Shown here: piece by piece, positions 2,012 through 42,068 of the stretch
Layout: each line of letters opens with the position of its first letter
Position numbering within the stretch: position 1 is the first letter of the stretch
Sequence record: NC_073320.1
DNA from: Escherichia phage 26
Length of the DNA: 42,462 bases
Direction: 5' to 3' (one strand)
Position numbers and translations under genes: made by a program
Notes under the pieces: generated by a model
What the model was told of the DNA's origin: nothing
What the model saw: the letters and a program-made list of their open reading frames with translations, nothing else
The model's database searches: none

Positions 2012-2027
2012 TATTTTCGACCCTTAG

Positions 2028-2052
2028 TAAAAAGGCCCAATGAAGGGCCTTA
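2028..2052 (-). terminator. hairpin AAGGCCC-N6-GGGCCTT with U-tract in minus orientation, between SSB-like and polymerase genes (attenuator)
   Basis: 7-bp GC stem, T5 run on minus strand. Confidence 0.4.
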
Positions 2053-2070
2053 GTTAAATTGATTCAGATA

Positions 2071-2697: not shown

Positions 2698-2765
2698 CGT
2701 GATTTCTCGCTTTTCAGTTTATATTTCAAAGTTTACTCCGGGAAGCTGCCCGGCCAGTGATTAGA

Positions 2766-2794
2766 ACTATAATAGCTAACTATTCAGGTGTCAA
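2766..2794 (-). promoter_or_regulatory. sigma70-type promoter P3 (TTGACA-17-TATAGT) with AATAG-N4-CTATT dyad in the spacer
   Basis: minus-strand reading TTGACAcctgAATAGttagCTATTATAGT just upstream of SSB-like and polymerase genes. Confidence 0.5.
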
Positions 2795-5577: not shown

Positions 5578-5607
5578 ACTATAATAGCGAACTATTCATT
5601 ATGTCAA
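5578..5607 (-). promoter_or_regulatory. sigma70-type promoter P2 (TTGACA-18-TATAGT) with AATAG-N4-CTATT dyad; divergent from XRE gene
   Basis: minus-strand reading TTGACAtaatgAATAGttcgCTATTATAGTTAGCC; same block as P1 and P3. Confidence 0.5.
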
Positions 5608-5671
5608 TTGGCTTTCCTAAAATAATTAATATGGTACTATTCACATATAAACTGACTAAGGAGTAATTACT

Positions 5672-5887
5672 ATGCAACCATCTGAACTAGGCATCCGTGT
5701 AGAACAACGCCGTAAAGAACTCGGCATCTCCCAGCGCCGTCTGGCCGTCCTGACTGGCGTTTCCCAGGGCGCGATTAACCAGCTGGCACTCGGGGTAACT
5801 CAGGACGTACGCCCGGCAACGTTGTTTAAACTGGCGGAAGTGCTGCAAGTAGATGCTAAGTGGCTGGCGCTAGGTGAAGGGGCTTAA
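5672..5887 (+). CDS. XRE-family (Cro/CI-like) helix-turn-helix transcriptional regulator
   Basis: 71 aa; HTH LGISQRRLAVLTGVSQGAINQLALG; RBS TAAGGAG; only plus-strand gene in the early arm. Confidence 0.8.
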   Translation: MQPSELGIRVEQRRKELGISQRRLAVLTGVSQGAINQLALGVTQDVRPATLFKLAEVLQVDAKWLALGEGA

Positions 5888-8392: not shown

Positions 8393-8626
8393 TTATTCCA
8401 GGTCTTCTAAAGTAGCTGTCATTCCGCGAACTTCAGCAACAGCACTATATTTCCCACAAACATTTTTCACGACACCGGATTTAACCAACACCTTCAGCGA
8501 CCCTTCAATGATGGCGGAACTATAATACTTAAAATAACTACGTCGCAAGTCGATAACGCTGCACGACCCTTTTTTACGTGTTAATGAAACGACTGCCGTA
8601 AATACGCGTGACTGGAACTCGGTCAT
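8393..8626 (-). CDS. hypothetical protein, 77 aa, C-terminal ..TLEDLE tail
   Basis: ORF upstream of primase-helicase; shares C-terminal EDLE motif with primase-helicase and nuclease. Confidence 0.5.
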   Translation of the reverse strand: MTEFQSRVFTAVVSLTRKKGSCSVIDLRRSYFKYYSSAIIEGSLKVLVKSGVVKNVCGKYSAVAEVRGMTATLEDLE

Positions 8627-8793
8627 TTTACATTCTCCTTAATCCACGATTCCACTTTCTCCGGGTCAAACGTACCTGGCTGGCGGCGGCCCATAATGCG
8701 AATACAACAATCGGGGAACTTCCCACTCTTTAACCAGTTATTCAGTGTGCGGCGAGTAACCCCGATACGCTCGGCTACTTCATTCTGCGTCAT
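8623..8793 (-). CDS. small HTH DNA-binding protein, AlpA/excisionase-like, 56 aa
   Basis: below track cutoff; MTQNEVAERIGVTRRTLNNWLKSGKFP; ATGA overlap with downstream gene; first gene of leftward arm. Confidence 0.55.
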   Translation of the reverse strand: MTQNEVAERIGVTRRTLNNWLKSGKFPDCCIRIMGRRQPGTFDPEKVESWIKENVK

Positions 8794-9262
8794 TCTAAAA
8801 CCCTCATTATCAGTTAACGAAACAGAGTATACATTGCGAATAATGGGAAATCAAACATAATCGCACCTATTGACATTATGAAAATATTCGTTTAAGGTGC
8901 TTCTATATCTTAGTTACTTTGATTCTTGTTCACCTTGTAAGAATGCTTAACCCGTGCGTTAAGCAAAGGGTTAAGCAGCAGGCTTACTGAACACGAGAAT
9001 TATTGTAACTTTCCTTCCTAAGTATCTCCGGTTGCCCTGGGCAAGCTATATTCTCATCGGCAGCATATCTCTTAAGTATCTGATTTTCTTAATGTGCCGT
9101 AGATTCGCAACCGTAAAAATGTAACGATTATTGGGCAGGCTTAAGGCCTGCCCTTTAGTTACCAAGTAATAAGAATAAAGGCACAACCCCTGCATGAAGA
9201 ATCACAACGGCAACGTAACTATCCTCTTGCACACCCCAACATAATAGGATACTATTCACTTA
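8794..9262. other. 469-bp non-coding region between divergent early arms; candidate origin/regulatory hub
   Basis: no ORF over 16 codons on either strand; GTTAAGC x3 (8945-8976), TAAGTATCT x2 (9019-9027, 9073-9081), hairpin GGGCAGGC-TTAAG-GCCTGCCC (9133-9153), dyad copy at 9243. Confidence 0.3.
9243..9256. promoter_or_regulatory. AATAG-N4-CTATT dyad copy upstream of first rightward gene
   Basis: flanks (ccaaCATAATAGGATACTATTCA) match the reverse complement of the 23-bp element at 19486 and 29732. Confidence 0.4.
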
Positions 9263-9289
9263 TTGAAACGAGACAGAGGAGTGAGGGTT

Positions 9290-9478
9290 ATGTTTAAGAA
9301 GGGTCAGTTGGTTAAAATTAAAGAGACCAAAGAACTCTCGGTCATATTCGCGTCCCACAAAGAAAATAGATATTATTTTGCCGCATCTTTAACAGTATCG
9401 TATCTCACCGTTTTATACGCACAGGATATGGAACTCATCGGCAACAATTTTAAATTCAAAGGGCGAAGTGATGTTTAA
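9290..9478 (+). CDS. hypothetical protein, 62 aa
   Basis: ATG after RBS GGAGTGAGGG (track ORF starts at upstream TTG 9263). Confidence 0.5.
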   Translation: MFKKGQLVKIKETKELSVIFASHKENRYYFAASLTVSYLTVLYAQDMELIGNNFKFKGRSDV

Positions 9479-10339: not shown

Positions 10340-10353
10340 AATAGGTTACTATT
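10340..10353. promoter_or_regulatory. AATAG-N4-CTATT dyad copy immediately before a terminator
   Basis: caATAGgttaCTATTtgg; no -35/-10 context, so looks like a binding site rather than a promoter. Confidence 0.35.
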
Positions 10354-10642: not shown

Positions 10643-10672
10643 TTGCACACTAAGATAGAATAGGCTACTATT
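10643..10672 (+). promoter_or_regulatory. promoter-like element (TTGCAC-17-TACTAT) with AATAG-N4-CTATT dyad in the spacer
   Basis: TTGCACactaagatagAATAGgctaCTATTcat, 30 nt upstream of the 10703 ORF. Confidence 0.4.
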
Positions 10673-10702
10673 CATTTACACAAACGAGAGGAGAGACAGA
10701 AG

Positions 10703-13695: not shown

Positions 13696-13717
13696 ATCTA
13701 TTCCCTGCAATGACTAG

Positions 13718-13746
13718 TTGACTATTATCTTCGACCATATTATATT
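13718..13746 (+). promoter_or_regulatory. sigma70-type promoter (TTGACT-17-TATATT) with degenerate dyad ACTAG-N4-CTATT
   Basis: good -35/-10 match 34 nt upstream of the 13780 ORF. Confidence 0.5.
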
Positions 13747-14900: not shown

Positions 14901-15169
14901 GCCACAAGAAATTTGCAATTAGCCGTGAGCACGCCGCCTGTGCGGTAGACGATATACGAGAAACGGCGCGGCTTGGTGATGAGATAGCGGGGGTAAGTAT
15001 GTTCAGTGACATTAACGCAGCAATCGAAGAAGCAATCTGGCGTCGCTACAACGGCGAGCAACAGCGACATTTCTGCCTGGTGCAACGCGGTAACATGATT
15101 GCCGTGGTGCAGGACCGCGATAACAAATACCCGAATGTGATGTGGACAACGAGGAATTTCTTAGGATGA
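14897..15169 (+). CDS. hypothetical protein, ~90 aa (start uncertain)
   Basis: possible TTG start overlapping upstream stop; internal ATG at 14999 is an alternative. Confidence 0.4.
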   Translation: MSHKKFAISREHAACAVDDIRETARLGDEIAGVSMFSDINAAIEEAIWRRYNGEQQRHFCLVQRGNMIAVVQDRDNKYPNVMWTTRNFLG

Positions 15170-18908: not shown

Positions 18909-18910
18909 AG

Positions 18911-18940
18911 AAAAAGGCCCCATAGCGGGGCCTTAGTTTT
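18911..18940. terminator. bidirectional terminator AAGGCCCC-ATAGC-GGGGCCTT
   Basis: 8-bp GC stem flanked by A-run upstream and T-run downstream; sits between convergent portal (+) and DnaN-like (-) genes. Confidence 0.6.
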
Positions 18941-19460
18941 ATTTAAATCTTGCGGGCATTAGCACCATATATGCAGTGTTTGAAAATGATATTTTGCATC
19001 CTCTGGTTTGGTCCTGGAAATCGAAACGAGCAATTTCATTTTTGTATGCCTTAGAAATCTTGTGCGCGTCCGCCAAGTAGGGCATGGTGAATCCTATGCT
19101 ATCAACCGCCCCAGGCGTGATGTGCGCCACACGCCGCCAGTCAGGAAATTTTCCGTCTACAACATCCACCGGAAGTGTACATATAAGCGAACGACTATCG
19201 TCATAGAAAGAAACACTGCTGTAGTCGTGGTCTACTTCCGCGTAGTTAAATTTATAAGGCTCTCTCCCTTTGATGTCTATGAGAACCCCATTCTCGACGT
19301 TTGTCTTAACATTGTCGCAGAACAATCTATGGCCGTCCGTAGACACTATCAACCCTTCCGGGTCTATGTAAAAAGCATTCAGATAGTAGCGCACATCATT
19401 TTTAGCTCTGCATATTTTTGCCCCTATATACGCAGGGAAAGTAATTACTGTAGTAATCAT
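18939..19460 (-). CDS. truncated beta sliding clamp (DnaN) homolog, 173 aa
   Basis: motifs DVRYYLN, STDGHRL, VDGKFPDWRRV, IGFTMPYL, AYMVLMPARF match domain II and the C-terminal end of domain III of bacterial DnaN (recalled E. coli DnaN); RBS GAGGAGGAG; opposite strand to flanking late genes. Confidence 0.7.
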   Translation of the reverse strand: MITTVITFPAYIGAKICRAKNDVRYYLNAFYIDPEGLIVSTDGHRLFCDNVKTNVENGVLIDIKGREPYKFNYAEVDHDYSSVSFYDDSRSLICTLPVDVVDGKFPDWRRVAHITPGAVDSIGFTMPYLADAHKISKAYKNEIARFDFQDQTRGCKISFSNTAYMVLMPARFK

Positions 19461-19485
19461 TTTAACTCCTCCTCGTTTCGATAAC

Positions 19486-19508
19486 TGAATAGTACCCTAT
19501 TATATTGG
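19486..19508. promoter_or_regulatory. 23-bp promoter-like element TGAATAGTACCCTATTATATTGG, copy 1
   Basis: identical 23-mer at 29732-29754; contains the dyad; reverse complement gives a perfect TATAAT positioned before the DnaN-like gene. Confidence 0.5.
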
Positions 19509-19561
19509 TGTCTGCAAATATTATTTTTATGCGTTACACTGGCGATACTACAGGAGGGCAC

Positions 19562-20605
19562 ATGAGCTTACTTACATCCCTAATCAGCCACCAGATTTGG
19601 CTGCAACGCACCGCATCCGGTGAAGTGAAAGACCTCGCACCGTTCATTGAGGAAATGCGGGACGAAATCAAACGGCAGGTGCTATTATTCGGCGACGACG
19701 GGCGAAGCACCGCGCGACTGAATAAACTGTTACGCGACCTGGAAGAAGCATTAACCGGGCTTACAGGAGACTGGCAAACAAAGCTGACAGAAGACCTTAA
19801 GGAACTGGCGGCGTATGAGGCAGAGTGGAACGTAAAGACACTGGCCGCCAACGTTAACGCGGAATTTGTTACACCTACCGCCGAACAGGTGTGGGCCGCT
19901 GCCGAGTTTCAGCCCTTATCATTAAGCGACAAGCCTGCCGACTTCACTAAGCTGATGTCGGGTTGGGGTGAAACGGAAGTAGCACGTCTCGTAACAGGCG
20001 TTAAGATGGGCTTTGTTCAGGGCCAAACCACGCGGCATATCGTTAAGAATGTCGTAGGCGCTGGTGGACTGGCTGACATCTCTGAACGCAACGCCGCTAC
20101 GGTAATACGTACTGCGCTGTCCCACGTATCCAACGAAGCCCGTAACGAGACATACCGACAGAACGACGACATCATTGAGAAGTACGAAATCGTCGCCACA
20201 CTCGACAGCCGTACATCAACAATATGCCGTAGCCTGGACGGGCAGGAATACGAAATCGGCAAAGGGCCGAGACCCCCTTTCCACCCTAACTGCAGAACGA
20301 CCACTGCGCCCGTAATCAGTTCAGAGTTCGACTTCCTGGATAAAGGCGCAAAACGAGCAGCTAAAGGTGCGGACGGCGGCACTCAAGTGAGCGCGGATAC
20401 CACATACTACGAGTTCCTGAAACAACAGCCGGCGTGGTTCCAGGACCAGGCGCTCGGCCCTGTTCGCGGTAAGATTTTCCGTAACAGCGGTATATCGCCG
20501 GAAGAGTTTCGCGTAATATCTGTAGATGGTTTCGGGAATCCGCTGACGCTTAAGCAGATGGCGGAACTCGATAAACGTGTTGCTGATTATCTGAAAGAGG
20601 AATAA
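19562..20605 (+). CDS. head morphogenesis / minor head protein (by position)
   Basis: 347 aa after portal; ATG 19562 after RBS AGGAGGG (track ORF starts at upstream TTG 19505). Confidence 0.5.
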   Translation: MSLLTSLISHQIWLQRTASGEVKDLAPFIEEMRDEIKRQVLLFGDDGRSTARLNKLLRDLEEALTGLTGDWQTKLTEDLKELAAYEAEWNVKTLAANVNAEFVTPTAEQVWAAAEFQPLSLSDKPADFTKLMSGWGETEVARLVTGVKMGFVQGQTTRHIVKNVVGAGGLADISERNAATVIRTALSHVSNEARNETYRQNDDIIEKYEIVATLDSRTSTICRSLDGQEYEIGKGPRPPFHPNCRTTTAPVISSEFDFLDKGAKRAAKGADGGTQVSADTTYYEFLKQQPAWFQDQALGPVRGKIFRNSGISPEEFRVISVDGFGNPLTLKQMAELDKRVADYLKEE

Positions 20606-21066
20606 TGATGGGCTTTTTCAAAGTAACTGATGCGCCGTCGCGTCGCGTAGTCCAGTACGCCCGCGTGGCTGGCTCTGGTGAGAACGTGGTGTTTATTGAA
20701 GATGAAAGTGTACTTGGTACACCAGTAGACGATATGCCGTTTGCAGATAAAACCGGCATCGCACTACCAGCGGCTGGGATGCTTTACGAGATTCCGTATC
20801 TGGCTGACGCTGGCGATGTGTATTTCTCAGTGCAACCGAAAGACACTGAACTGGTGGACGGAAGCGCAACTATCACTGTCGAAGTTAAGGCGGGCAAAGC
20901 ACCATACGCTCTGACCTGGTACAAAGACGGAAAAGAAGTGGTAAACGCCCCGGAAGAGGCTTTGTCCCTGACGGTTAACGCGGCCGGAGAATACTTCGTT
21001 AAAGTTACTGACGCCGATGGTGTAGAGGCGGTAAGCAAGGCGGCGAAGGTTACTAAGCCCGAATAA
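20605..21066 (+). CDS. Ig-like domain protein (possible decoration protein)
   Basis: LTWYKDGKEV motif shared with the 24065 ORF (QWYKDNNAI). Confidence 0.45.
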   Translation: MMGFFKVTDAPSRRVVQYARVAGSGENVVFIEDESVLGTPVDDMPFADKTGIALPAAGMLYEIPYLADAGDVYFSVQPKDTELVDGSATITVEVKAGKAPYALTWYKDGKEVVNAPEEALSLTVNAAGEYFVKVTDADGVEAVSKAAKVTKPE

Positions 21067-21141
21067 ACTGAAGCCCAGAAAGGGGCTTTTTAGTGTCTGT
21101 GATTATTCCAGTTATTCCACTCAATTGTAAATGTCGGAATA

Positions 21142-21157
21142 AACTATTCGAATAGTT
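21142..21157. repeat. perfect 16-bp palindrome AACTATTCGAATAGTT (everted copy of the dyad half-sites)
   Basis: self-complementary; overlaps a TTGACT -35-like hexamer. Confidence 0.6.
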
Positions 21158-21268
21158 GACTTTTCACTGAAAATGTGCTAAGCTCCACCTGAGCTTGTGA
21201 AGTATGAACAAGCGACCGCGGCGCGGGCAGGTAACGGAGCGGGACGTAAGTCCTGAGTGTAGTTACGC

Positions 21269-21297
21269 TGACGCGTTCGGAAGGGCCATACTATATT
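21269..21297 (+). promoter_or_regulatory. promoter-like element (TGACGC-17-TATATT) upstream of spanin genes
   Basis: -35/-10-like hexamers with 17-bp spacing. Confidence 0.35.
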
Positions 21298-21364
21298 GCT
21301 TGTATAAAAAGTAACTGGTTTACTGAGATTACGCCGTTTCTATGTTTAAATGATAAGCACTAGC

Positions 21365-21391
21365 GCCCCGCTTTAAGGCGGGGCTTTACTT
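21365..21391 (+). terminator. rho-independent terminator/attenuator
   Basis: GCCCCGC-TTTAAG-GCGGGGC then TTTACTT. Confidence 0.5.
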
Positions 21392-21408
21392 ATCGAGAAA
21401 GGGGAAAC

Positions 21409-21795
21409 ATGAATCTTAAAGCAACTGTCGTAGCGGGAGCATGTTTCATAGTCCTGGCTTACGCGCACGGCATCTACCAATACCGCGGCGGCTGGAACGA
21501 AGGCCGGGCGAATCTCGTTTCGCAGCAACAGCAGAAAGCACAGGCTGAGTTAGCGAAGAAAACACAACGGCAGCAGCAGGATGAATCGAAGGCCGCAGCC
21601 GCCGACAACGAAGGCAAGACGAAATCAGAGGTGATTACCCGTGAAGTCGTTAAGTACATTAAAACGCCTGGTCGCAGCGTGTGCACTTTCGACGATACTC
21701 GCGTCCTGCTCAAGTCCCGCGCCGTCGCAAACGCCAATTCCATCCCCGGATACGACAATGATGCAGCCGCCGTGCAAGCTGGCACCCCCAAGTAG
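21409..21795 (+). CDS. i-spanin (Rz-like)
   Basis: N-terminal TM LKATVVAGACFIVLAYAHGIY, Gln/Lys-rich coiled-coil, periplasmic C-terminus; contains embedded lipoprotein gene. Confidence 0.6.
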   Translation: MNLKATVVAGACFIVLAYAHGIYQYRGGWNEGRANLVSQQQQKAQAELAKKTQRQQQDESKAAAADNEGKTKSEVITREVVKYIKTPGRSVCTFDDTRVLLKSRAVANANSIPGYDNDAAAVQAGTPK

Positions 21796-26919: not shown

Positions 26920-28088
26920 ATATGGCTACAACTCCTTTTAAGGGCGCGACTACCGCGCAATTCTATGTGGCGGAAGTCACCCCGGGCGTAACACCGACTA
27001 ACCCAGTATGGTCGCCGTTGCGTAACACAGGTGGCGTCCCCGCCATTACCCGCGACACACTGACCTCCAACGAACTGGACGGCAGCCGTGAAACTACATC
27101 CATCCGCACGGGCAACAAACAGGTTAGCGGGGAGTACGCCATTGAGCTTAGCTCGAAAAGCCAGGATGACTGGTTAGCGGGTGCTTTAGGCTCTACGTGG
27201 CAATCCGGTGTATCCTTGGCTGACCTGTCAATTACCGTAGCACCGGCTGGCAAGACGTTCACCCGTGCTGATGGCAGCTTCATTACTGACGGCGTTGAAG
27301 TAGGCGACCTGATTGCGTTTACCGACTTAACCGGTGACAACGCAAAACCATTTATCGTCACTGCGGTAGAGGCACTGGTATTGACCGGTGCGGGCATCCA
27401 GCACACTCTCACCACAGAGACCGCTACTACTGCGGCTAAGACCGGCGACAAACTGGAAACCGGTAGCCAGTGTAAGACGTTCTCTATTCTCACATGGTAC
27501 AAAGGCCAGTGCGGCGGGACTGACGCGTACACGCTTACCAAAGGCGTGGAAGTTTCAGGTTTTACCGTCGAGCAGGCTGTTAACGCGATGGTAACGGGCA
27601 GCTTCCCGTTCATCGGGCGCAGCCAGGAGATTCTCACTACGCCACCGTCTGGTTCTGATTTCTCCTCTGTTACGTTTGGTGATGAGCCGTTCTCCTCGGT
27701 TGACGTTTCTGTGTTCGACGGTTCTACGCCGTTGCGTTGTGATAGCCTGACCATCACCAACGATAACAGCGCGTCCGCGCAGTTCGAACTCGGCAACACT
27801 AACGTAGCGTTTGTGGAACGTAGCCGCGCGGCTAACACCTTCTCCATCTCCGGTAAGCTGTACGACATGGCGATGATTCAGAAGTTTATCAACGAGCAGC
27901 AGGTAGAGATTAACTCTATTCTGGCGGGGGTAAACGGGGCTATGTCTTTCAGTCTGAAACGCGCAGAACTCACGGCGGTTACACCAGAGATTGGCGGACC
28001 TGAGTCAATCACTCAGTCCATTGAAGGCCAGGCTACCGGCAACCAGTATCAGTCGTCTATCGTTATCCAGCGTATTAGCTACGCATAA
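26916..28088 (+). CDS. major tail (tube) protein
   Basis: 390 aa upstream of chaperone/tape-measure genes; followed by strong terminator. Confidence 0.6.
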   Translation: MNMATTPFKGATTAQFYVAEVTPGVTPTNPVWSPLRNTGGVPAITRDTLTSNELDGSRETTSIRTGNKQVSGEYAIELSSKSQDDWLAGALGSTWQSGVSLADLSITVAPAGKTFTRADGSFITDGVEVGDLIAFTDLTGDNAKPFIVTAVEALVLTGAGIQHTLTTETATTAAKTGDKLETGSQCKTFSILTWYKGQCGGTDAYTLTKGVEVSGFTVEQAVNAMVTGSFPFIGRSQEILTTPPSGSDFSSVTFGDEPFSSVDVSVFDGSTPLRCDSLTITNDNSASAQFELGNTNVAFVERSRAANTFSISGKLYDMAMIQKFINEQQVEINSILAGVNGAMSFSLKRAELTAVTPEIGGPESITQSIEGQATGNQYQSSIVIQRISYA

Positions 28089-28116
28089 AACTAAGGCCCC
28101 TTTCGGGGCCTTTTTC
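28089..28116. terminator. bidirectional terminator AAGGCCCC-TTTC-GGGGCCTT
   Basis: 8-bp GC stem then T-run; between convergent tail tube (+) and moron cassette (-). Confidence 0.65.
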
Positions 28117-28347
28117 TTACTCGTCGATATTGCTTCGATACTCCCGTAACTTCTCCAGACTTTCAATTGCTTCCGCTAAGTCGGTTCCGGTGTCCTTGTG
28201 CCCACGAAGACCCATACACAGCAGCTTCTTCAATGCGTGCTGTAGCGCCGGGTCGCGTATATCGAAGGCGCGTAGCACATCGTAAACGTCTACTGTCATT
28301 GTGCTGCCGTGAGTATTTGTCATTGTGCGGTTGTATTTTGAAGTCAT
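28117..28347 (-). CDS. hypothetical protein, 76 aa (moron cassette gene 3)
   Basis: ATGA overlap with phosphoesterase stop. Confidence 0.5.
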   Translation of the reverse strand: MTSKYNRTMTNTHGSTMTVDVYDVLRAFDIRDPALQHALKKLLCMGLRGHKDTGTDLAEAIESLEKLREYRSNIDE

Positions 28348-29474
28348 CCCAGCATCTCCGGTGAAATAGTTAAACGTGCGACCTCTCCATATTCTGCGCT
28401 ATATGTTATCACGTTAGCGCTACGACCAGACATCCATCCACCGCGGGAGGCGTATGCGTCTTTCGCGGCTAAGGTGCGGTGTTGCTCAACAATCATGTTA
28501 CGGCTTTCTACAATCTTCTGATGGTGCAGGTGGCCTACGTGGGCGTAGCTATAAACACTCTCGCCAAACGCTTTGCGGAACTTAGCTATCATAATGGGCT
28601 CGACCACCTCAAACCGGCATTTATGCCCGTGGGTAAAGAACAGCGTCGTTTTGCCGTGTCGCACCATCTTGTAAACATCCGGCGACGTATCGACGAACAC
28701 ACGCGGCTCGTTGTCGTACAGCGTACTGAACATCTCGGCCAGCCAAATCATTCCGCTTTCATCGTGGTTCCCTTGCACTATAAGCAAGCGAACATTTTTA
28801 TGCTTAACCAGCGCCATATCTACAACACGGCGCACCATACGAATCATGTAGCGAACAAGTTTTTGGTAGCGAGTGTCCGCGTCAAGGGCGTGACCGCTTG
28901 CCGGCGTAACGGCAACCAGACTATCGAAGTGCGCGAAGTCACCTAACAGGTTAATAACTCCGGTTCCAGCGTCCGGCGCTTTCTGAAACGCCGCGTCGAA
29001 CCATCGGGAGAACAGGCCTTCCGCAATCTTCATATCCCAGTCGTCGCCGCTCTCGTCGGCCCAGGCCAGCATGCCGAGATGGAAATCTGATACCGTGTAA
29101 AGATTGAGTAGTTTATCGTCTCGTTTAGCGCGAACGGCTTTAACAGGCGCAACTGGAGTAATCTCTGACTTCATGCCTTCGATTACGGCTTTCATTAACT
29201 CGACCTGACGTTCGGCGTCAGTGTCGGTCTTAACCCATTGCAATTTAGTGTTGCCGAACTCGTCCACCAGTGACGACGTTCCTTTAATCTTGTAGCCGTC
29301 TGGTACAAGATGACTGACGTCGCGGCCGTGTCCCACGCCTTTCTTAGCCAGCTTTGCTTTACGGATACGAATTACGCGGTCTGAGATGCCATATTTACGG
29401 GCTATATAGATAGTTTTAACTCCGGCGTTCAATTCTTCCTGTAACTGTTCGTCGGTTATTTTCTTCCGGGCCAT
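28344..29474 (-). CDS. HTH domain - calcineurin-like metallophosphoesterase fusion (moron cassette gene 2)
   Basis: N-terminal MARKKITDEQLQEELNAGVKTIYIARKYGISDR; phosphoesterase motifs SDFHLG, GDFAHFD, GNHD, THGH, GHLHH. Confidence 0.7.
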   Translation of the reverse strand: MARKKITDEQLQEELNAGVKTIYIARKYGISDRVIRIRKAKLAKKGVGHGRDVSHLVPDGYKIKGTSSLVDEFGNTKLQWVKTDTDAERQVELMKAVIEGMKSEITPVAPVKAVRAKRDDKLLNLYTVSDFHLGMLAWADESGDDWDMKIAEGLFSRWFDAAFQKAPDAGTGVINLLGDFAHFDSLVAVTPASGHALDADTRYQKLVRYMIRMVRRVVDMALVKHKNVRLLIVQGNHDESGMIWLAEMFSTLYDNEPRVFVDTSPDVYKMVRHGKTTLFFTHGHKCRFEVVEPIMIAKFRKAFGESVYSYAHVGHLHHQKIVESRNMIVEQHRTLAAKDAYASRGGWMSGRSANVITYSAEYGEVARLTISPEMLG

Positions 29475-29512
29475 GCTTACTTCCTCGTGTTTAGGATTTG
29501 TCCTATGCTAGC

Positions 29513-29704
29513 TCACTTCTCGTTAACATTCGAGTTGCAAGCCCAGATTAAAATAAATACCCACGGCAACAGAACCCAACCAAGAAATAGATTAGCCATG
29601 AATATCGCCAACTTCGCTTTATGGTTGCGGAAATACGCAACCAGGAAAGGCGCGAAATAAGCGAGCAGTGCAAACAGAATTAAGGAAACTGGTAAACTTG
29701 ACAT
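29513..29704 (-). CDS. small two-TM membrane protein, superinfection-immunity (Imm)-like (moron cassette gene 1)
   Basis: FAPFLVAYFRNHK..FLGWVLLPW; start ATG 29704 after GGAGGG (track ORF begins at 29719); family match from memory. Confidence 0.5.
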   Translation of the reverse strand: MSSLPVSLILFALLAYFAPFLVAYFRNHKAKLAIFMANLFLGWVLLPWVFILIWACNSNVNEK

Positions 29705-29731
29705 TTTAAATCCCTCCATTGTTGGTGTGGG

Positions 29732-29754
29732 TGAATAGTACCCTATTATATTGG
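29732..29754. promoter_or_regulatory. 23-bp promoter-like element TGAATAGTACCCTATTATATTGG, copy 2
   Basis: identical to 19486-19508; reverse complement supplies TATAAT about 40 nt upstream of the Imm-like gene start. Confidence 0.5.
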
Positions 29755-29871
29755 GGTGCGCAAGTAGTGTGCTAGAATAATTTTGCGCCTAGTGTCGCAC
29801 ACGAAAAGCGGGTGGTTCCCGTCTGGCGCATTTATCGTTAACCAGTAACCTCTTAACCAAAGGATTAAAGA

Positions 29872-30288
29872 ATGAAACTTTCTGATTTTTATTTCGAAGA
29901 GAAAGCACTGGTAGGCAAGAAGATGCCTATTCTCCTGCCAAATGGTGAAGACTCAGGGGAATGGCTTAATGTTGTAAATCCGGATGCGGATGCCGCCGTT
30001 AAAGCGGGGCGTGCTTTCATTATCGCGTACCGCCGCGGGCTAGCGCGTTTTGAAGAACTGGAAAAAGCCGCCAAAGATTCCGGCGACTATACTGAATATA
30101 ACCTGGCGGTTAACGAACTGGCGGAAGACCTCAACCGGCAACTTGCGGCAGAAGTCGTAAACGGGTGGAGCTTTGATGAGCCTTTCTCTAAGGAAGAATT
30201 TAATAATCTCCTCTGCCAGTTCAAGGCATTAGGCACACAGGTTGCAGCGTTCCATAACGCCGAGCGCAAAGCATTACAGGAAAAGTAG
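29872..30288 (+). CDS. tail assembly chaperone (G-like)
   Basis: 138-aa ORF before tape measure; overlapping -1 frame ORF downstream. Confidence 0.6.
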   Translation: MKLSDFYFEEKALVGKKMPILLPNGEDSGEWLNVVNPDADAAVKAGRAFIIAYRRGLARFEELEKAAKDSGDYTEYNLAVNELAEDLNRQLAAEVVNGWSFDEPFSKEEFNNLLCQFKALGTQVAAFHNAERKALQEK

Positions 30289-36840: not shown

Positions 36841-38817
36841 ATGTCAAGCGGATGTGGTGATGTTGTAAGTCTGGAGTCGATGCAAATCGCACGTAAACAC
36901 CAGATTTTCGAAATCGAGGTTATCACCGGTAAATCCGGCGGTGTTTCCGGTGGTGCGGATATTGATTACGCGACCAACGCAGTTACTGGCCAGACCCAAA
37001 AGACGCTCCCGGCCGTGTTGCGCGACGTTGGGTTTCTTCCTGCTGGCTTTGATTTTTCCACAGGTGGCACCTTATCTATAAATGATAGAAATAAATCAGT
37101 TTTGTGGCCTTCTTCCTCAGGCGGCGATGACCAGTACTACACATGGCAGGGGGTTCTACCTAAAGTTATTCCCGCTTCCAGTTCTCCTAGTGCATCAGGA
37201 GGAGTAGCACCAGGTGCTTGGGTTCAGGTATCGTATTTAGCGTTAAAAACCGATTTAGCCTCTGTTTTAGGGGCTTCCATGATAGGGCTGCCTGCTGGTG
37301 GCTCTCTTGATATGGCCTTAAAATACACGACGCCAGAGCAATTTCTTGCTTCAGCAACTGATATGACTGAAGCCATCCAGATGGCCTTTGATTACGGGGA
37401 CGTAGTAGACTTGTCAGGGTCGAACTATACAATAGCTCGCACGATAAATATTCCGGACGGTCGTGTGCTGCGCATGCAAGGCTCCAACATTACGGCGGCT
37501 ACGGGGGTCACACCCCTATTCTCTTTCTCAGGAAAGAACTTAGGTCTAACAATCATTGGCGGCAGTGGTGTAGTGACAGGGTCAGCTAGTGCCTTTTTGT
37601 ACTGCGAGGGCGCGAGCGACACCCCGGTAAACGCGGACTATGTTAAGCAAGTACGTATTTATGGGGTAAACGTATCTTCTGCTACGTTTGAACGGGCTAT
37701 ACTGTTCGACAAAGCGGTACGTCAAGTGTTTATAGATAGCTGCATGTTCTATACACGCAACGGCATTGAGTCTACTGGTAAATGCGTAGAAGTAATGATT
37801 AATAAATCCATTATTTATGGCGCTACCTCTGATACCGATACATTCGGCGTTAAATTGTCCAGCACGGGAGGTACAAACTTCTACAATGAAGGGTGGCGTC
37901 TAACCGACTGCACAGTTGATAACTTTGCTAATTCAATTGACCTAGCTGATGTGTTTGTATTTACATTCAAGAACGGATATGTGGCTTGTAATGCAACAAC
38001 AGCTTTTGCCGTTACTGTTCGCGGGGTTACCACAACAACGCATTGTCGAGAAATTAACTTTGATGGGGTTATTGGCGGTAAGGTGCGTTTCTTAGATAAT
38101 GCGTCCGGCTCATTGACCATGCATACTCTTATTACAGGAGAGATTACGAACTGTAAACCTGGAACGTGTATAGCTATCGGGGCAAACTTGGCAGGTATTG
38201 ATATCCGCAATATCAAAATCACTTCAAGTCCATCTTGCATACTGGCTTCTGTAGCTAACAACAGTGGTAATATCCATTTTGCAGGCGTTTCTACCGACAG
38301 CACCCTAACCGCGGGCATTATCTTCAACGGAACAAACGGCGGAAACTGTAGCATCTCTGATTTTATATACGCTGGCTCTGGCGAGGCTCTTTCTCTCGCG
38401 CGGGCGGTTCTGCTGTCCAATGTGCCGGTTGTTGGGGCGACGACACCAATTTGGTCTGTGCGTCACGGCTATCAATCTACAACAACGACGGTTACTACAG
38501 GTAATTATATTTCTAGCACTCAATTCACTGCTGCGAAAGGCTCTAAACTACTGTTTAATATTAACATGTCGTACACTGGGGCGGCCGGGTCTAACGGGCA
38601 GTCAATCGGGATAAATGTACCGGCGAATGTATCGCTGCCGAATGGTGCGAAAAGTATGACATTAATACTTCCTGCGGCATCCGGAACAGTTGGATTGACA
38701 CTAGTATGTACTGTTACTGATGATTTTATAAATAATTTATTCAGCGTGACAAATAACACAGGCAACACCTTATCAATACTACCCGGTGCGCACGTTTCAG
38801 TATCGCTATGTAATTAA
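36841..38817 (+). CDS. tailspike / receptor-binding depolymerase with beta-helix
   Basis: 658 aa; N-terminal anchor MSSGCGDVVSLESMQ..; Gly/Ser/Thr/Asn-rich repetitive region typical of right-handed beta-helix. Confidence 0.65.
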   Translation: MSSGCGDVVSLESMQIARKHQIFEIEVITGKSGGVSGGADIDYATNAVTGQTQKTLPAVLRDVGFLPAGFDFSTGGTLSINDRNKSVLWPSSSGGDDQYYTWQGVLPKVIPASSSPSASGGVAPGAWVQVSYLALKTDLASVLGASMIGLPAGGSLDMALKYTTPEQFLASATDMTEAIQMAFDYGDVVDLSGSNYTIARTINIPDGRVLRMQGSNITAATGVTPLFSFSGKNLGLTIIGGSGVVTGSASAFLYCEGASDTPVNADYVKQVRIYGVNVSSATFERAILFDKAVRQVFIDSCMFYTRNGIESTGKCVEVMINKSIIYGATSDTDTFGVKLSSTGGTNFYNEGWRLTDCTVDNFANSIDLADVFVFTFKNGYVACNATTAFAVTVRGVTTTTHCREINFDGVIGGKVRFLDNASGSLTMHTLITGEITNCKPGTCIAIGANLAGIDIRNIKITSSPSCILASVANNSGNIHFAGVSTDSTLTAGIIFNGTNGGNCSISDFIYAGSGEALSLARAVLLSNVPVVGATTPIWSVRHGYQSTTTTVTTGNYISSTQFTAAKGSKLLFNINMSYTGAAGSNGQSIGINVPANVSLPNGAKSMTLILPAASGTVGLTLVCTVTDDFINNLFSVTNNTGNTLSILPGAHVSVSLCN

Positions 38818-38847
38818 AACTAAGGCCCCAAACGGGGCCTTTTCTCT
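38818..38847. terminator. terminator AAGGCCCC-AAAC-GGGGCCTT at end of late arm (likely bidirectional)
   Basis: 8-bp GC stem then TTCTCT; between convergent tailspike (+) and HNH remnant (-). Confidence 0.65.
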
Positions 38848-38979
38848 ACTCTTCGGATAACTTCTCCAGTACAAACGCCAGTTGTGCATTAGCAGCGTCT
38901 CTCTGTTGCCGTAGGCGTATAACCTCCTCTTCGAGTTCCTTGATACGTTTTTGCAATGCGGGAATCGGGGCTATGATGT

Positions 38980-41780: not shown

Positions 41781-42068
41781 CTAACTATAATAGTTCGCTA
41801 TTAGGTCGTCAACCTGTTTAAACGAACCGACGACAAAAACATTCGCACCACGTTTCCGGAATCTCTCATGTTCCCGTAGCTGGTGCGGGTCTGGCTTCGT
41901 GTTTTCGTCTTTCTTTATCTCAACGAACCAGATGATGCCGCCGGGGAGAATTACCAGGAGGTCCATGGCGGCTCGCCGACCTTCAAATGCCATCTTGCGA
42001 ACGAGGCCACCAATGGCCTCGAATCGGTATTTTGCGTATTTCTGGATTCGCCCTTCAGGCGTACTCAT
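41781..42068 (-). CDS. VRR-NUC domain nuclease
   Basis: DLLVILPGGIIWFVEIKKDENTKPDPHQLREHERF; start ATG 42068 (track ORF begins at 42077). Confidence 0.65.
   Translation of the reverse strand: MSTPEGRIQKYAKYRFEAIGGLVRKMAFEGRRAAMDLLVILPGGIIWFVEIKKDENTKPDPHQLREHERFRKRGANVFVVGSFKQVDDLIANYYS
41784..41812 (-). promoter_or_regulatory. sigma70-type promoter P1 (TTGACG-17-TATAGT) with dyad, embedded in the 3' coding end of the VRR-NUC gene
   Basis: minus-strand TTGACGacctAATAGcgaaCTATTATAGT-TAG; the TAG is the VRR-NUC stop. Confidence 0.45.

What the first reader, a model, noticed from the sequence alone, without database searches (positions are those of the whole stretch)
19486..19508. Identical 23-bp promoter-like element precedes both reverse-oriented morons
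TGAATAGTACCCTATTATATTGG occurs at 19486-19508 and again, base for base, at 29732-29754. Each copy lies in the divergent junction between a minus-strand moron (DnaN-like gene; Imm/phosphoesterase cassette) and the next plus-strand late gene. Read on the minus strand each gives a perfect TATAAT about 30-40 nt upstream of the moron start; neither has a good -35. A third near-identical copy in the same orientation sits at 9233-9256. This implies the two morons are co-regulated, and may have arrived with, or recruited, the same promoter cassette.
Basis: seen in the sequence. Interest (0 to 1): 0.6.

Follow-up and report, generated by a model that had tools for sequence, protein, structure and literature searches.

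The report
Shared promoter-operator for swappable phage genes
The repeated 23-bp sequence is real, but it is one form of a genome-wide family of bacterial-type promoters carrying a built-in palindromic protein-binding site, which this virulent E. coli phage uses for its early genes and for exchangeable accessory-gene cassettes; the motif had already been listed in a related phage, so this refines known biology rather than adding a new kind of element.

Summary
The window is a near-complete Kagunavirus genome (Guernseyvirinae, virulent siphovirus). The 23-mer is exact at 19486-19508 and 29732-29754. The third copy is at 9236-9258 on the opposite strand, with 2 mismatches. The 23-mers belong to a larger family built on the palindrome AATAG-N4-CTATT: 8 exact copies against 0.04 expected. 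The same palindrome is the top gapped palindrome in a Kagunavirus relative and in a Jerseyvirus. Each core lies inside a sigma-70-type promoter. Class A is TTGACA-N17/18-TATAGT and drives the replication operons. Class B is TTGCNN-N17-TACTAT and drives the small early genes, the Cro-like gene and both reverse-oriented cassettes. Among relatives the arms and hexamers are fixed, while the N4 centre and the core's offset from the -35 vary, which is the pattern expected of an operator. The likeliest binder is the adjacent 71-aa 434-Cro-like protein, but this is not settled. The promoter-leader-gene-terminator unit is portable: the DnaN-like gene sits in two different slots in different phages, and 44 exact 23-mers precede 16 unrelated gene families. 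The fBC-Eco01 paper already listed the motif and attributed it to a phage RNA polymerase that these genomes do not encode. Verdict: an ordinary kind of element, now described more accurately.

The parts
19486..19508 (-). 23-mer copy 1, part of the class-B promoter-operator for the DnaN-like cassette
   Evidence: Exact match. The palindrome core is at 19488-19501.
19481..19517 (-). Full inferred promoter P(J1): -35 TTGCAG 19512-19517, 17-nt spacer, -10 TACTAT 19489-19494, predicted start site near 19481-19483.
   Evidence: Coordinates. The layout is shared by all class-B copies and by 44 of 44 exact 23-mers. The start site is inferred, not mapped.
29732..29754 (-). 23-mer copy 2, part of the class-B promoter-operator for the Imm/exonuclease cassette
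   Evidence: Exact match. The core is at 29734-29747.
29727..29763 (-). Full inferred promoter P(J2): -35 TTGCGC 29758-29763, -10 TACTAT 29735-29740, predicted start site near 29727-29729
   Evidence: It is conserved at -137/-138 from the chaperone start codon in 15 of 15 Kagunavirus loci.
9227..9258 (+). Class-B promoter-operator of the rightward small early genes: -35 TTGCAC 9227-9232, core 9243-9256, -10 TACTAT 9250-9255.
10643..10672 (+). Class-B promoter-operator: TTGCAC 10643-10648, core 10659-10672, TACTAT 10666-10671
5628..5641 (+). Degenerate core (AATATGGTACTATT, 1 mismatch) in the promoter of the Cro-like gene itself; -10 TACTAT 5635-5640
   Evidence: The Jerseyvirus ortholog reads TTGCAC-N17-TACTAT.
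5578..5607 (-). Class-A promoter-operator: -35 TTGACA 5602-5607, core 5583-5596 in the 18-nt spacer, -10 TATAGT 5578-5583. It is divergent from the Cro-like gene and its core lies 45 bp from the 5628 core.
2766..2794 (-). Class-A promoter-operator of the ssb-like gene: TTGACA 2789-2794, core 2771-2784, TATAGT 2766-2771
41784..41812 (-). Class-A promoter-operator of the helicase operon: TTGACG 41807-41812, core 41789-41802, TATAGT 41784-41789
   Evidence: The ortholog in PVP-SE2 is at 15056.
10340..10353 (.). Orphan exact core with no -35, lying 10 nt before a terminator-like hairpin
   Evidence: Its function is unknown.
5672..5887 (+). 71-aa Cro/C1-type HTH protein, the favoured candidate binder of the core
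   Evidence: Pfam HTH_3 E 1.1e-12. Best solved-structure matches are 434 Cro and 434 repressor, E about 1e-5. Its recognition helix is invariant in 30 of 31 Kagunavirus loci.
8623..8793 (-). 56-aa HTH_17 (excisionase/MerR-like) protein, the rival candidate binder; its own promoter at 8826-8854(-) has no core
18939..19460 (-). Cargo of slot J1: the DnaN-like/'RusA-like' 173-aa gene
   Evidence: It is portable between J1 and J3. GC 43.5%.
18909..18943 (.). Bidirectional terminator closing the J1 cassette; one of 4 near-identical terminators
28117..29704 (-). Cargo of slot J2: Imm (29513-29704), metallophosphoesterase/exonuclease (28344-29474) and a 76-aa protein (28117-28347)
28086..28126 (.). 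Bidirectional terminator closing the J2 cassette
29770..29778 (+). Rightward extended -10 promoter TGCTAGAAT for the tail operon, back-to-back with P(J2)
   Evidence: It is conserved as TGnTAGAAT in relatives and as TGTTATTCT in Jerseyvirus.

Best explanation
Each 23-mer is the central part of a host-RNA-polymerase (sigma-70-type) promoter that fires on the minus strand into its cassette. The promoter reads -35 TTGCAG/TTGCGC, a 17-bp spacer, then -10 TACTAT. Embedded in it is a 14-bp palindromic operator, AATAG-N4-CTATT, whose right arm overlaps the -10. The same operator sits in the spacer of three strong leftward promoters (TTGACA-N17/18-TATAGT) that drive the replication genes. It also sits in the promoters of the rightward small early genes and of a 71-aa 434-Cro-like protein. 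The two cassettes therefore belong to one phage-wide early regulon rather than to a private moron circuit. The most likely mechanism is that a phage-encoded HTH dimer occupies the operator and blocks RNA polymerase. This would shut off early transcription and silence the antisense cassettes, so that the late head and tail operons they sit in can be read. The best candidate binder is the Cro-like protein encoded at 5672-5887, next to two cores placed 45 bp apart between divergent promoters. The unit of promoter-operator, short conserved leader with RBS, gene(s) and a conserved terminator behaves as a portable cassette. It occupies three antisense slots in the late region: portal|head-morphogenesis (J1), tail tube|chaperone (J2) and fibritin-like|spanin (J3). 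Shown here: the repeat family, its layout, its conservation pattern and the cassette's portability. Inferred: promoter activity and start sites, protein binding, the identity of the binder, and the direction of regulation (repression).
For: Repeat family. There are 8 exact cores against 0.04 expected. The core is the top gapped palindrome in the window (8 copies), in fBC-Eco01 (7) and in Jerseyvirus PVP-SE2 (3 exact, 10 within one mismatch). Promoter layout and consistent distance to RBS and start codon. Persistence. TTGCNN-N17-TA(C/G)TAT survives in Jerseyvirus and in more distant clades where TATAAT does not. Direction. The 9243 and 10659 copies have no gene on the opposite side, and 9243 would run straight into a terminator. 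Operator signature. In upstream regions chosen only by their downstream gene, the arms and hexamers are invariant. Variation concentrates in the N4 centre and in the linker to the -35. The core's offset from the -35 is +4/+5 in class A, +7 in the Jerseyvirus Imm promoter and +10 in class B. So the palindrome is not a by-product of the hexamers. Binder. The Cro-like protein is HTH_3, and its nearest solved relatives are 434 Cro and 434 repressor. Its helix is invariant within Kagunavirus and changes in Jerseyvirus, where the base flanking the arm also changes from G/T to T. Genomes with a more diverged Cro-like protein (STP-1, VSiA, TS33) have no exact AATAG-N4-CTATT cores. STP-1 and VSiA carry TATTA-N6-TAATA at the equivalent promoters. 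Portability. Expression. In the only RNA-seq study of a relative, Imm is classed with DNA polymerase and the methyltransferases rather than with the structural genes around it (PMC12645636).
Against: No transcription start site or binding data exist for any member. By consensus class B is a weak promoter: -35 matches 3 of 6 and -10 matches 4 of 6. A generic sigma-70 scan does not call it, and instead calls the opposite-strand reading TCGATA-N17-TATATT at 19478-19506. The identity of the binder is unresolved. The recognition helices of the Jerseyvirus and Cornellvirus Cro-like proteins resemble each other more than either resembles the Kagunavirus one, yet Jerseyvirus shares the Kagunavirus core. 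The HTH_17 protein is present in Kagunavirus and Jerseyvirus and absent from the genomes that lack the core. The asymmetric 19-mer TATAATAGnnnACTATTCA has opposite orientation relative to transcription in class A and class B, and a simple symmetric dimer does not explain this. The RNA-seq study is coarse and unsynchronised. It labels Imm 'late', which does not show early expression followed by shut-off.
Confidence: 0.6

Rival explanations
1. The element is a -35-less promoter whose -10 is the perfect TATAAT. It is private to the two morons and has no operator function.
For: A perfect TATAAT lies at 19499-19504 and 29745-29750 on the minus strand. An A/T-rich -10-like hexamer occupies this position in most copies.
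Against: There is no -35 and no TGn extension upstream of it. At orthologous sites it reads CATAAT (most 9243 orthologs), AATAAT, or is absent (the Jerseyvirus promoter of the Cro-like gene), while TTGCNN-N17-TACTAT persists. The same core occurs in at least 7 other promoters, including those of core replication genes.
Confidence: 0.12
2. The core is the binding site of the 56-aa HTH_17 (excisionase/AlpA/MerR-like) protein encoded at 8623-8793. This immediate-early factor acts on these promoters as a repressor, an activator, or a factor loaded onto RNA polymerase at the promoter.
For: HTH_17 is 84% identical between Kagunavirus and Jerseyvirus, with an identical GVTRRTLNNWL segment. It is absent from STP-1, VSiA and TS33, which lack exact copies of the core. 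Its own promoter has no core. Its ortholog is one of only four 'early' genes in the K1B4 RNA-seq study.
Against: Among Kagunaviruses that all carry the same cores, its helix has five variants. Locus L144 has 6 cores in 14 kb but no HTH_17 at the syntenic place, nor in about 24 kb of that contig. The presence/absence pattern could reflect a single ancestral event. A 14-bp palindrome fits a Cro-type dimer better than an excisionase-type monomer (own knowledge).
Confidence: 0.15
3. These are promoters for a phage-encoded RNA polymerase, as stated for the PHIRE motif in the fBC-Eco01 paper.
For: A conserved motif of about 20 bp is repeated in intergenic regions, which is what PHIRE detects. The consensus tgAATAGTa-ccTATTat-T was published with that attribution (PMC9825357).
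Against: No RNA polymerase gene is annotated in fBC-Eco01, PVP-SE2 or STP-1. No unassigned ORF in the window is long enough. The motif is flanked by sigma-70 hexamers at canonical spacing. Its orientation relative to transcription is opposite in class A and class B.
Confidence: 0.01
4. The repeats are maintained only as recombination substrates, as regulatory-cassette homology in the manner of T4 PeSLs, with no dedicated DNA-binding protein. The palindrome is incidental.
For: Indel and replacement breakpoints coincide with the promoter-leader and terminator repeats. Two cargo families occur in two different slots.
Against: The 5-bp arms are held constant at orthologous, non-mobile promoters of core genes across two genera, while the centre varies. 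The core shifts relative to the -35 while keeping its sequence. Homology-driven recombination would not select for a palindrome.
Confidence: 0.07
5. The element is a bidirectional promoter that also drives the plus-strand late gene next to it, through TATATT on the plus strand.
For: TCGATA-N17-TATATT at 19478-19506(+) scores 9 of 12 in a generic scan. Both focal copies sit in divergent junctions.
Against: The plus-strand -35 position is not conserved: it is GGTGTG at 29734 and AAGTTA in most J1 variants. The generic scan finds such sites at background frequency, 9 found against 9.0 expected. The tail operon has its own conserved extended -10, TGnTAGAAT. Relatives with empty J1 junctions express the head gene without this element.
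Confidence: 0.1

Closest known systems
Phage 434 (lambdoid) Cro/cI repressor with 14-bp operators overlapping promoters
   Same: There is a small HTH_3 protein, 71 aa like 434 Cro, whose best solved-structure matches are 434 Cro and 434 repressor. The operator is a 14-bp palindrome with conserved outer bases and a variable centre. Operators overlap the -35/-10 regions. Two sites lie between divergent promoters next to the regulator gene.
   Different: The phage is virulent, and no integrase or cI-like repressor is annotated. Operators are scattered at 9 or more promoters around the genome instead of clustered as OR and OL. Binding is untested, and the match between helix and operator across genera is not clean.
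PHIRE 'phage promoter' motif tgAATAGTa-ccTATTat-T of Escherichia phage fBC-Eco01 (PMC9825357); 7 PHIRE promoters are also reported in vB_EcoS-Golestan (PMC7203180)
   Same: For fBC-Eco01 it is the same motif at the same relative places in a Kagunavirus about 90% identical to the window. The Golestan sequences were not inspected here.
   Different: The fBC-Eco01 paper attributes the motif to a phage-encoded RNA polymerase, which these genomes lack. It did not note the palindrome, the two promoter classes or the cassette portability.
PeSL regulatory cassettes of T4-type phages (PMC2839356, PMC4122927)
   Same: Repeated sigma-70-type early promoters and stem-loop terminators flank non-essential genes and coincide with insertion, deletion and replacement breakpoints.
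   Different: In PeSLs the terminator and promoter form one composite unit inside hyperplastic regions of myoviruses. Here the promoter and terminator sit at opposite ends of an antisense cassette inside siphovirus late operons, and the promoter also carries a palindromic core. Mini-circles could not be tested.
Morons of lambdoid and HK97-like phages (reviewed in PMC3594210)
   Same: The J1 unit is an independent transcription unit inserted between two genes that are adjacent in relatives: 24 loci have an empty 69-bp junction. Its base composition is atypical.
   Different: Classical morons are expressed from the prophage, whereas this phage is virulent. The Imm/exonuclease cassette is a conserved core feature of two genera rather than an add-on.

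Membership tests
Sigma-70-type bacterial promoter | -35-like and -10-like hexamers separated by 16-18 bp, with A at -11 and T at -7 | tested here: met
   Class B reads TTGCAG/TTGCGC/TTGCAC-N17-TACTAT. Class A reads TTGACA/G-N17/18-TATAGT. Class B is weak, matching 7 of 12 positions, and is not called by a generic scan.
Sigma-70-type bacterial promoter | Lies upstream of a gene in the right orientation and at a consistent distance | tested here: met
   There are 27-33 nt from the core to the start codon in the 5 class-B copies of the window. For the 44 exact 23-mers the distance is 22-41 nt, with 41 of 44 at 22-28 nt.
Sigma-70-type bacterial promoter | Transcripts start about 7 nt downstream of the -10 | not testable with these tools
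   No start-site data exist. The only RNA-seq paper on a relative gives temporal classes only.
Phage single-subunit RNA polymerase promoter | The genome encodes a phage RNA polymerase | tested here: not met
   None is annotated in three relatives, and no unassigned ORF in the window is of sufficient length.
Phage single-subunit RNA polymerase promoter | The motif has a single orientation relative to the transcribed genes | tested here: not met
   The 19-mer is oriented oppositely in class A and class B.
434/lambda-type Cro/CI operator system | A Cro/C1-type HTH protein is encoded next to the operators | tested here: met
   HTH_3 E 1.1e-12. 434 Cro E 7e-6. Cores at 5583 and 5628 flank the gene's promoter region.
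434/lambda-type Cro/CI operator system | A palindromic operator of about 14-17 bp overlaps promoter elements, with conserved arms and a variable centre | tested here: met
434/lambda-type Cro/CI operator system | The operator sequence co-varies with the recognition helix | tested here: inconclusive
   Between Kagunavirus and Jerseyvirus the helix and the flanking base change together. Cornellvirus has a different palindrome. However, the Jerseyvirus helix resembles the Cornellvirus helix.
434/lambda-type Cro/CI operator system | The protein binds the operator as a dimer | not testable with these tools
   This needs a gel-shift or footprinting experiment.
434/lambda-type Cro/CI operator system | Part of a lysis-lysogeny switch with a cI repressor and an integrase | tested here: not met
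   No integrase or cI is annotated in fBC-Eco01, PVP-SE2 or STP-1. The fBC-Eco01 paper reports no lysogeny genes.
Moron | Own promoter and terminator flank the gene(s) | tested here: met
   The promoters are as above. The terminators lie at 18914-18934 and 28093-28112.
Moron | Inserted between genes that are adjacent in close relatives | tested here: met
   For J1, 24 loci have an empty 69-bp junction and 11 loci carry diverse cargo. For J2 the feature is not met within Kagunavirus and Jerseyvirus, where the cassette is always present.
Moron | Atypical base composition | tested here: met
   The DnaN-like gene has GC 43.5%, the 3rd percentile. Imm is at 42.2%. The exonuclease and the 76-aa gene are typical.
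PeSL-type mobile regulatory cassette | Near-identical promoter and terminator repeats occur many times per genome | tested here: met
   There are 9 or more promoter copies and 4 near-identical terminators.
PeSL-type mobile regulatory cassette | Indel and replacement breakpoints coincide with the repeats | tested here: met
PeSL-type mobile regulatory cassette | A composite unit of terminator stem-loop immediately followed by the promoter | tested here: inconclusive
   The two are adjacent only in the empty J1 junction, where a terminator abuts a degenerate core, TATAGTATGCTATT. Elsewhere they sit at opposite ends of the cassette.

The most novel reading that the evidence does not exclude
Kagunaviruses, and possibly other Guernseyvirinae, maintain three fixed antisense 'expression sockets' inside their late operons. 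Each socket is a portable promoter-operator-leader plus terminator unit. Unrelated accessory genes (superinfection exclusion, DNA methyltransferase, a clamp-like protein, many orphans) are shuffled between sockets and between phages. All of them are wired into one early shut-off circuit run by a 434-Cro-like repressor in a strictly virulent phage. Operator occupancy at the back-to-back promoters at 29735-29778 would also act as the switch that hands the DNA from the antisense early cassette to the late tail promoter.
Probability: 0.3. Interest if true: 0.55.

Novelty: new member of a known kind. Interest (0 to 1): 0.4.

Why it matters
It corrects a published attribution for a therapy-relevant phage group: these are host-polymerase promoters with an operator, not promoters for a phage RNA polymerase. 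It gives a testable regulatory map of the early promoters, two candidate regulators and the predicted start sites. It also identifies three hot spots where Kagunaviruses swap accessory genes behind a standard promoter. Those slots are natural places to look for anti-defence or exclusion genes, and natural places to insert payloads when engineering these phages. None of this is conceptually new, because operator-controlled early promoters, morons and promoter/terminator-mediated shuffling are all known.

Tried and rejected
(1) Generic sigma-70 consensus scan. It finds sites at background frequency and cannot decide the direction of transcription, so the comparative data were used instead. (2) A motif-selected information profile. 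It was discarded as circular and replaced by upstream regions chosen by their downstream gene. (3) A simple test of co-variation between the regulator's helix and the operator across three genera. The result was not clean and prompted the test of HTH_17. (4) HTH_17 as the binder, judged from its presence/absence pattern. This was weakened by helix variation within Kagunavirus and by L144, which lacks the gene. (5) A phage RNA polymerase promoter was rejected because no polymerase gene is present. (6) The hairpin at 29729-29743 that the scan flagged as terminator-like was dismissed because it is not shared by the other copies. (7) A loosely constrained literature query returned nothing relevant. 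(8) The ApeA preprint mentions Guernseyvirinae only as sensitive phages and says nothing on promoters. (9) An Rfam scan of the window found no known RNA family. (10) The supplements of the K1B4 RNA-seq paper hold annotation but no per-gene expression values.
Full report
**What the window is**

A 5-kb stretch around the finding matches 440 phage records. The best matches are about 90% identical and are Escherichia phages of the genus Kagunavirus, subfamily Guernseyvirinae. Weaker matches are Salmonella Jerseyviruses. Gene order follows the annotated relative fBC-Eco01: a leftward replication arm, a rightward block of small early genes with the lysis genes, then terminase, head and tail genes. 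The window is therefore a nearly complete genome of a virulent siphovirus.

**Checking the observation**

The 23-mer TGAATAGTACCCTATTATATTGG is exact at 19486-19508 and 29732-29754. No match is expected in shuffled sequence. Both copies lie in divergent junctions. One is between the DnaN-like gene 18939-19460(-) and the Mu-F head-morphogenesis gene 19562-20605(+). The other is between Imm (-) and the tail assembly chaperone 29872-30288(+). Imm most likely starts at the second in-frame ATG, 29704, which follows a GGAGGG ribosome-binding site and agrees with the 63-aa annotation in fBC-Eco01. The minus-strand TATAAT boxes are real, at 19499-19504 and 29745-29750. The 'third copy' is at 9236-9258, has two mismatches, and is on the other strand. 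It faces its own downstream gene at 9290(+), so only its orientation relative to that gene matches the other two.

**The element is part of a larger family**

The repeat finder linked the 23-mers to further copies (families D1 and D2, pairs I2 and I22). The shared core is the palindrome AATAG-N4-CTATT. It has 8 exact copies, with core starts at 2771, 5583, 9243, 10340, 10659, 19488, 29734 and 41789, plus a 1-mismatch promoter copy at 5628. The expectation is 0.04, and none of 100 shuffles reaches 8. An unbiased count of all 5-bp-arm palindromes with gaps of 0-8 puts this one first in the window (8), in fBC-Eco01 (7) and in the Jerseyvirus PVP-SE2 (3 exact, 10 within one mismatch).

**Anatomy: two promoter classes share one core**

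- Class A comprises the copies at 2771, 5583 and 41789, all leftward. It reads TTGACA/G, a 17-18 nt spacer, then TATAGT, with the core inside the spacer. An RBS and the start codon of a replication-arm gene follow.
- Class B comprises 9243(+), 10659(+), 5628(+), 19488(-) and 29734(-). Except at 5628, where no -35-like hexamer sits 17 nt upstream in the window, it reads TTGCAC/TTGCAG/TTGCGC, exactly 17 nt, then TACTAT. The right arm of the core overlaps the -10 (CTAT lies within TACTAT). An RBS and start codon lie 27-33 nt beyond the core.

That is too close for it to pair with this hexamer, and it has no -35 or TGn of its own. The core's offset from the -35 is +4/+5 in class A and +10 in class B.

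**Direction of transcription**

A generic consensus scan cannot settle this. It reports the opposite-strand reading TCGATA-N17-TATATT at 19478-19506, but it finds such sites at background frequency, 9 found against 9.0 expected. It rejects class B because TTGCAG matches only 3 of 6 positions. Three comparative observations favour the minus-strand reading for the two focal copies.

- The distance from the core to the RBS and start codon is constant. This holds for all 44 exact 23-mers in public viral contigs and the window.
- TTGCNN lies at the same offset in 44 of 44 copies. TTGCNN-N17-TA(C/G)TAT also persists where the palindrome drifts: TTGCAC-N17-TACTAT in a clade whose chaperone is 59% identical, and TTGCAT-N17-TAGTAT in a clade at 48%. 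The Jerseyvirus orthologs also keep it.
- The 9243 and 10659 copies have nothing to transcribe on the other side, and 9243 would run straight into the terminator at about 9133-9155.

At the orthologous 9243 site most relatives read CATAAT. The Jerseyvirus promoter of the Cro-like gene has no TATAAT at all.

**Why the palindrome looks like an operator**

Upstream regions were collected from 40-odd loci by the identity of their downstream gene, not by the motif. In them the arms, the -35 and the -10 are invariant or nearly so. The variable columns cluster in the first positions of N4 and in the linker between the core and the -35, which also varies in length. The core keeps its sequence while its position relative to the -35 differs: +4/+5, +7 in the Jerseyvirus Imm promoter, and +10. 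So the promoter hexamers do not explain it. A core centred near -18 (class A) or near -12 (class B) would block RNA polymerase if occupied. This is the basis for proposing repression, and it is an inference.

**Who binds it**

Two small HTH proteins are encoded nearby.

The first is the 71-aa product of 5672-5887. It is a Cro/C1-type HTH (Pfam HTH_3, E 1e-12). Its closest solved relatives are 434 Cro, also 71 aa, and the 434 repressor (E about 1e-5). From my own knowledge, 434 operators are 14-bp palindromes with conserved outer bases and a variable centre. The gene sits between divergent promoters that carry cores 45 bp apart, at 5583 and 5628. The core in its own promoter is the degenerate one, as expected for autoregulation.

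The second is the 56-aa product of 8623-8793. It is an HTH_17 (excisionase/MerR-like) protein, and its own promoter, TTGATT-N17-TATACT, has no core.

The evidence pulls both ways.

- For HTH_17: it is 84% identical between Kagunavirus and Jerseyvirus with an identical helix. It is missing from STP-1, VSiA (both Cornellvirus-type) and Hafnia phage TS33, which have no exact cores. The Cro-like recognition helix differs between Kagunavirus (SQGAINQ) and Jerseyvirus (SQSLITH), which share the core, and the Jerseyvirus helix resembles that of STP-1 (TQSAISH).
- For the Cro-like protein: its helix is invariant in 30 of 31 Kagunavirus loci and in 9 of 10 Jerseyvirus loci. HTH_17 has five helix variants among Kagunaviruses that all carry the same cores. 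Locus L144 has six cores in 14 kb but no HTH_17 at the syntenic place, nor in about 24 kb of that contig. The base just outside the arm is G on one half and T on the other in Kagunavirus but T on both halves in Jerseyvirus, which tracks the Cro-like helix. The Cornellvirus-type genomes carry a different palindrome, TATTA-N6-TAATA, at the equivalent class-B-type promoters.

My estimates are about 0.5 for the Cro-like protein, about 0.2 for HTH_17, and the remainder for another factor or none.

**The cassettes and their mobility**

*Junction 1 (portal | head morphogenesis), 77 loci.*
- In 24 Kagunavirus loci the junction is an empty 69-bp segment, made of a terminator followed by a degenerate core, TATAGTATGCTATT.
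- In 11 loci the exact core lies at -74/-75 from the head-gene start codon, and a minus-strand ORF starts 27-28 nt beyond it (in 9 of the 11).
- Those first ORFs fall into 11 families with no detectable similarity to each other. Only L018 shares the window's DnaN-like gene.
- One of the others is a 250-aa DNA methyltransferase.
- The promoter, the leader and the flank up to the head gene are nearly identical across these loci, while the coding sequence behind them changes.

*The DnaN-like gene.* It is at junction 1 only in the window and in L018. In eight other loci it lies at a third junction, after the fibritin-like gene and before the spanins. It always carries the same 5' flank (TTTGCNNNCNCCAAYATAATAGGGTACTATTCA, then the leader and RBS) and the same 3' terminator (TAAAACTAAGGCCCC-N4/5-GGGGCCTTTT). 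Similarity stops just outside these flanks. The window's own third junction, 21066-21409, is empty.

*Survey of all exact 23-mers.* Of the 44 copies, 23 are at junction 2, 10 at junction 3 and 8 at junction 1, and 3 could not be assigned. They precede 16 unrelated gene families. Two families, the DnaN-like gene and a 57-aa protein, each occur at both junctions 1 and 3.

*How far the 'moron' label applies.* The DnaN-like gene has GC 43.5% against 50.4% for the genome, the 3rd percentile. The idea that it arrived with its promoter cassette is therefore supported. In contrast, the Imm/exonuclease cassette and its promoter are present in 15 of 15 Kagunavirus loci and in Jerseyvirus. It is a conserved feature of these genera, not a recent moron.

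**Literature**

[quoted passage not shown] The annotated positions match the cores found here. vB_EcoS-Golestan likewise has seven PHIRE promoters (PMC7203180). No RNA polymerase gene is annotated in three relatives, and no unassigned ORF in the window is long enough to encode one. That attribution should be dropped.

One RNA-seq study of a close relative, vB_Eco_K1B4, is coarse. It samples from 5 to 120 min although the latent period is 30 min. It places the HTH_17 ortholog among four early genes and the Cro-like ortholog among the middle genes. It groups Imm with DNA polymerase and the methyltransferases rather than with the structural genes around it (PMC12645636). This is compatible with Imm sharing regulation with the replication arm, but it says nothing about the direction of that regulation.

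PeSL cassettes of T4-type phages (PMC2839356, PMC4122927) and classical morons (PMC3594210) are the closest described analogues for the mobility.

**Verdict**

The elements are probably promoters for the reverse-oriented cassettes, the cassettes are probably co-regulated, and the DnaN-like cassette does travel with its promoter and terminator. The element is not moron-specific, however. It is the standard early promoter-operator of this phage group, and its -10 was probably misassigned. The kind of system is known: operator-controlled sigma-70 promoters, morons, and shuffling mediated by promoter and terminator repeats. The motif itself was already published. I rate interest as moderate to low (0.4) and novelty as a new member of a known kind.

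Noticed in passing
window 29783-29831 (+): A conserved structured RNA lies in the leader of the tail operon, just downstream of the rightward extended -10 promoter (29770-29778). An outer stem (GCGCC/GGCGC) encloses two hairpins. A consensus fold on 10 distinct relatives, reaching clades with 47% chaperone identity, gives 13 pairs. Five pairs carry compensatory double changes, and none is broken in the outer stem or the first hairpin. The whole window has no Rfam match. A covariance model finds exactly one copy per genome, always at this place. Its function is unknown. It could be an antitermination, processing or translational control element.
   Followed up: partly
window 2731-2759 (minus strand): A conserved hairpin, CACTGGCCGGGCAGCTTCCCGGAGTAAAC, lies in the 5' leader of the ssb-like gene right after the class-A promoter. 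It is retained in Jerseyvirus and in STP-1. It may be an autoregulatory translational operator.
   Followed up: no
window 2026-2060, 18909-18943, 28086-28126, 38815-38855: Four near-identical bidirectional terminators (TAAAACTAAGGCCCC-N4-GGGGCCTTTT) stand at every point where leftward and rightward transcription converge. The same terminator travels with the DnaN-like cassette.
   Followed up: partly
window 13713-13746 and 21151-21184 (+): Two rightward promoters have the -35 TTGACT embedded in a 1-mismatch version of the core: ACTAGTTGACTATT with TTGACT-N17-TATATT, and AATAGTTGACTTTT with TTGACT-N17-TAAGCT. The first has an ortholog in Jerseyvirus. They may form a third class in which the core overlaps the -35.
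   Followed up: no
window 21160-21408 (+): About 250 nt of non-coding sequence lies between the 21156-21184 promoter and the terminator at 21365-21384, in the empty third junction. It is a possible small RNA.
   Followed up: no
window 10340-10353: An orphan exact core with a TACTAT but no -35 lies 10 nt before a terminator-like hairpin. The Jerseyvirus ortholog keeps the hairpin, but its core is degenerate.
   Followed up: no
window class-B leaders, e.g. 19463-19487(-), 9257-9285(+), 10673-10700(+): The short leaders share TTATCGAAACGAG(A/G)GGAG or GTTAACTTAAACAGGAG. The same DnaN-like gene occurs with either leader type in different phages. The first type is also found in Hafnia phage TS33.
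   Followed up: no
L144:5358-5943 (IMG/VR contig 3300045988_014597): In this Kagunavirus the HTH_17 gene and its neighbour upstream of the primase are replaced by a 47-aa CxxC...CxxC zinc-ribbon-like ORF and a 149-aa ORF.
   Followed up: partly
window 29513-29719: The ORF finder starts Imm at 29719. The RBS, the relatives and the fBC-Eco01 annotation point to the second ATG at 29704, giving 63 aa.
   Followed up: yes
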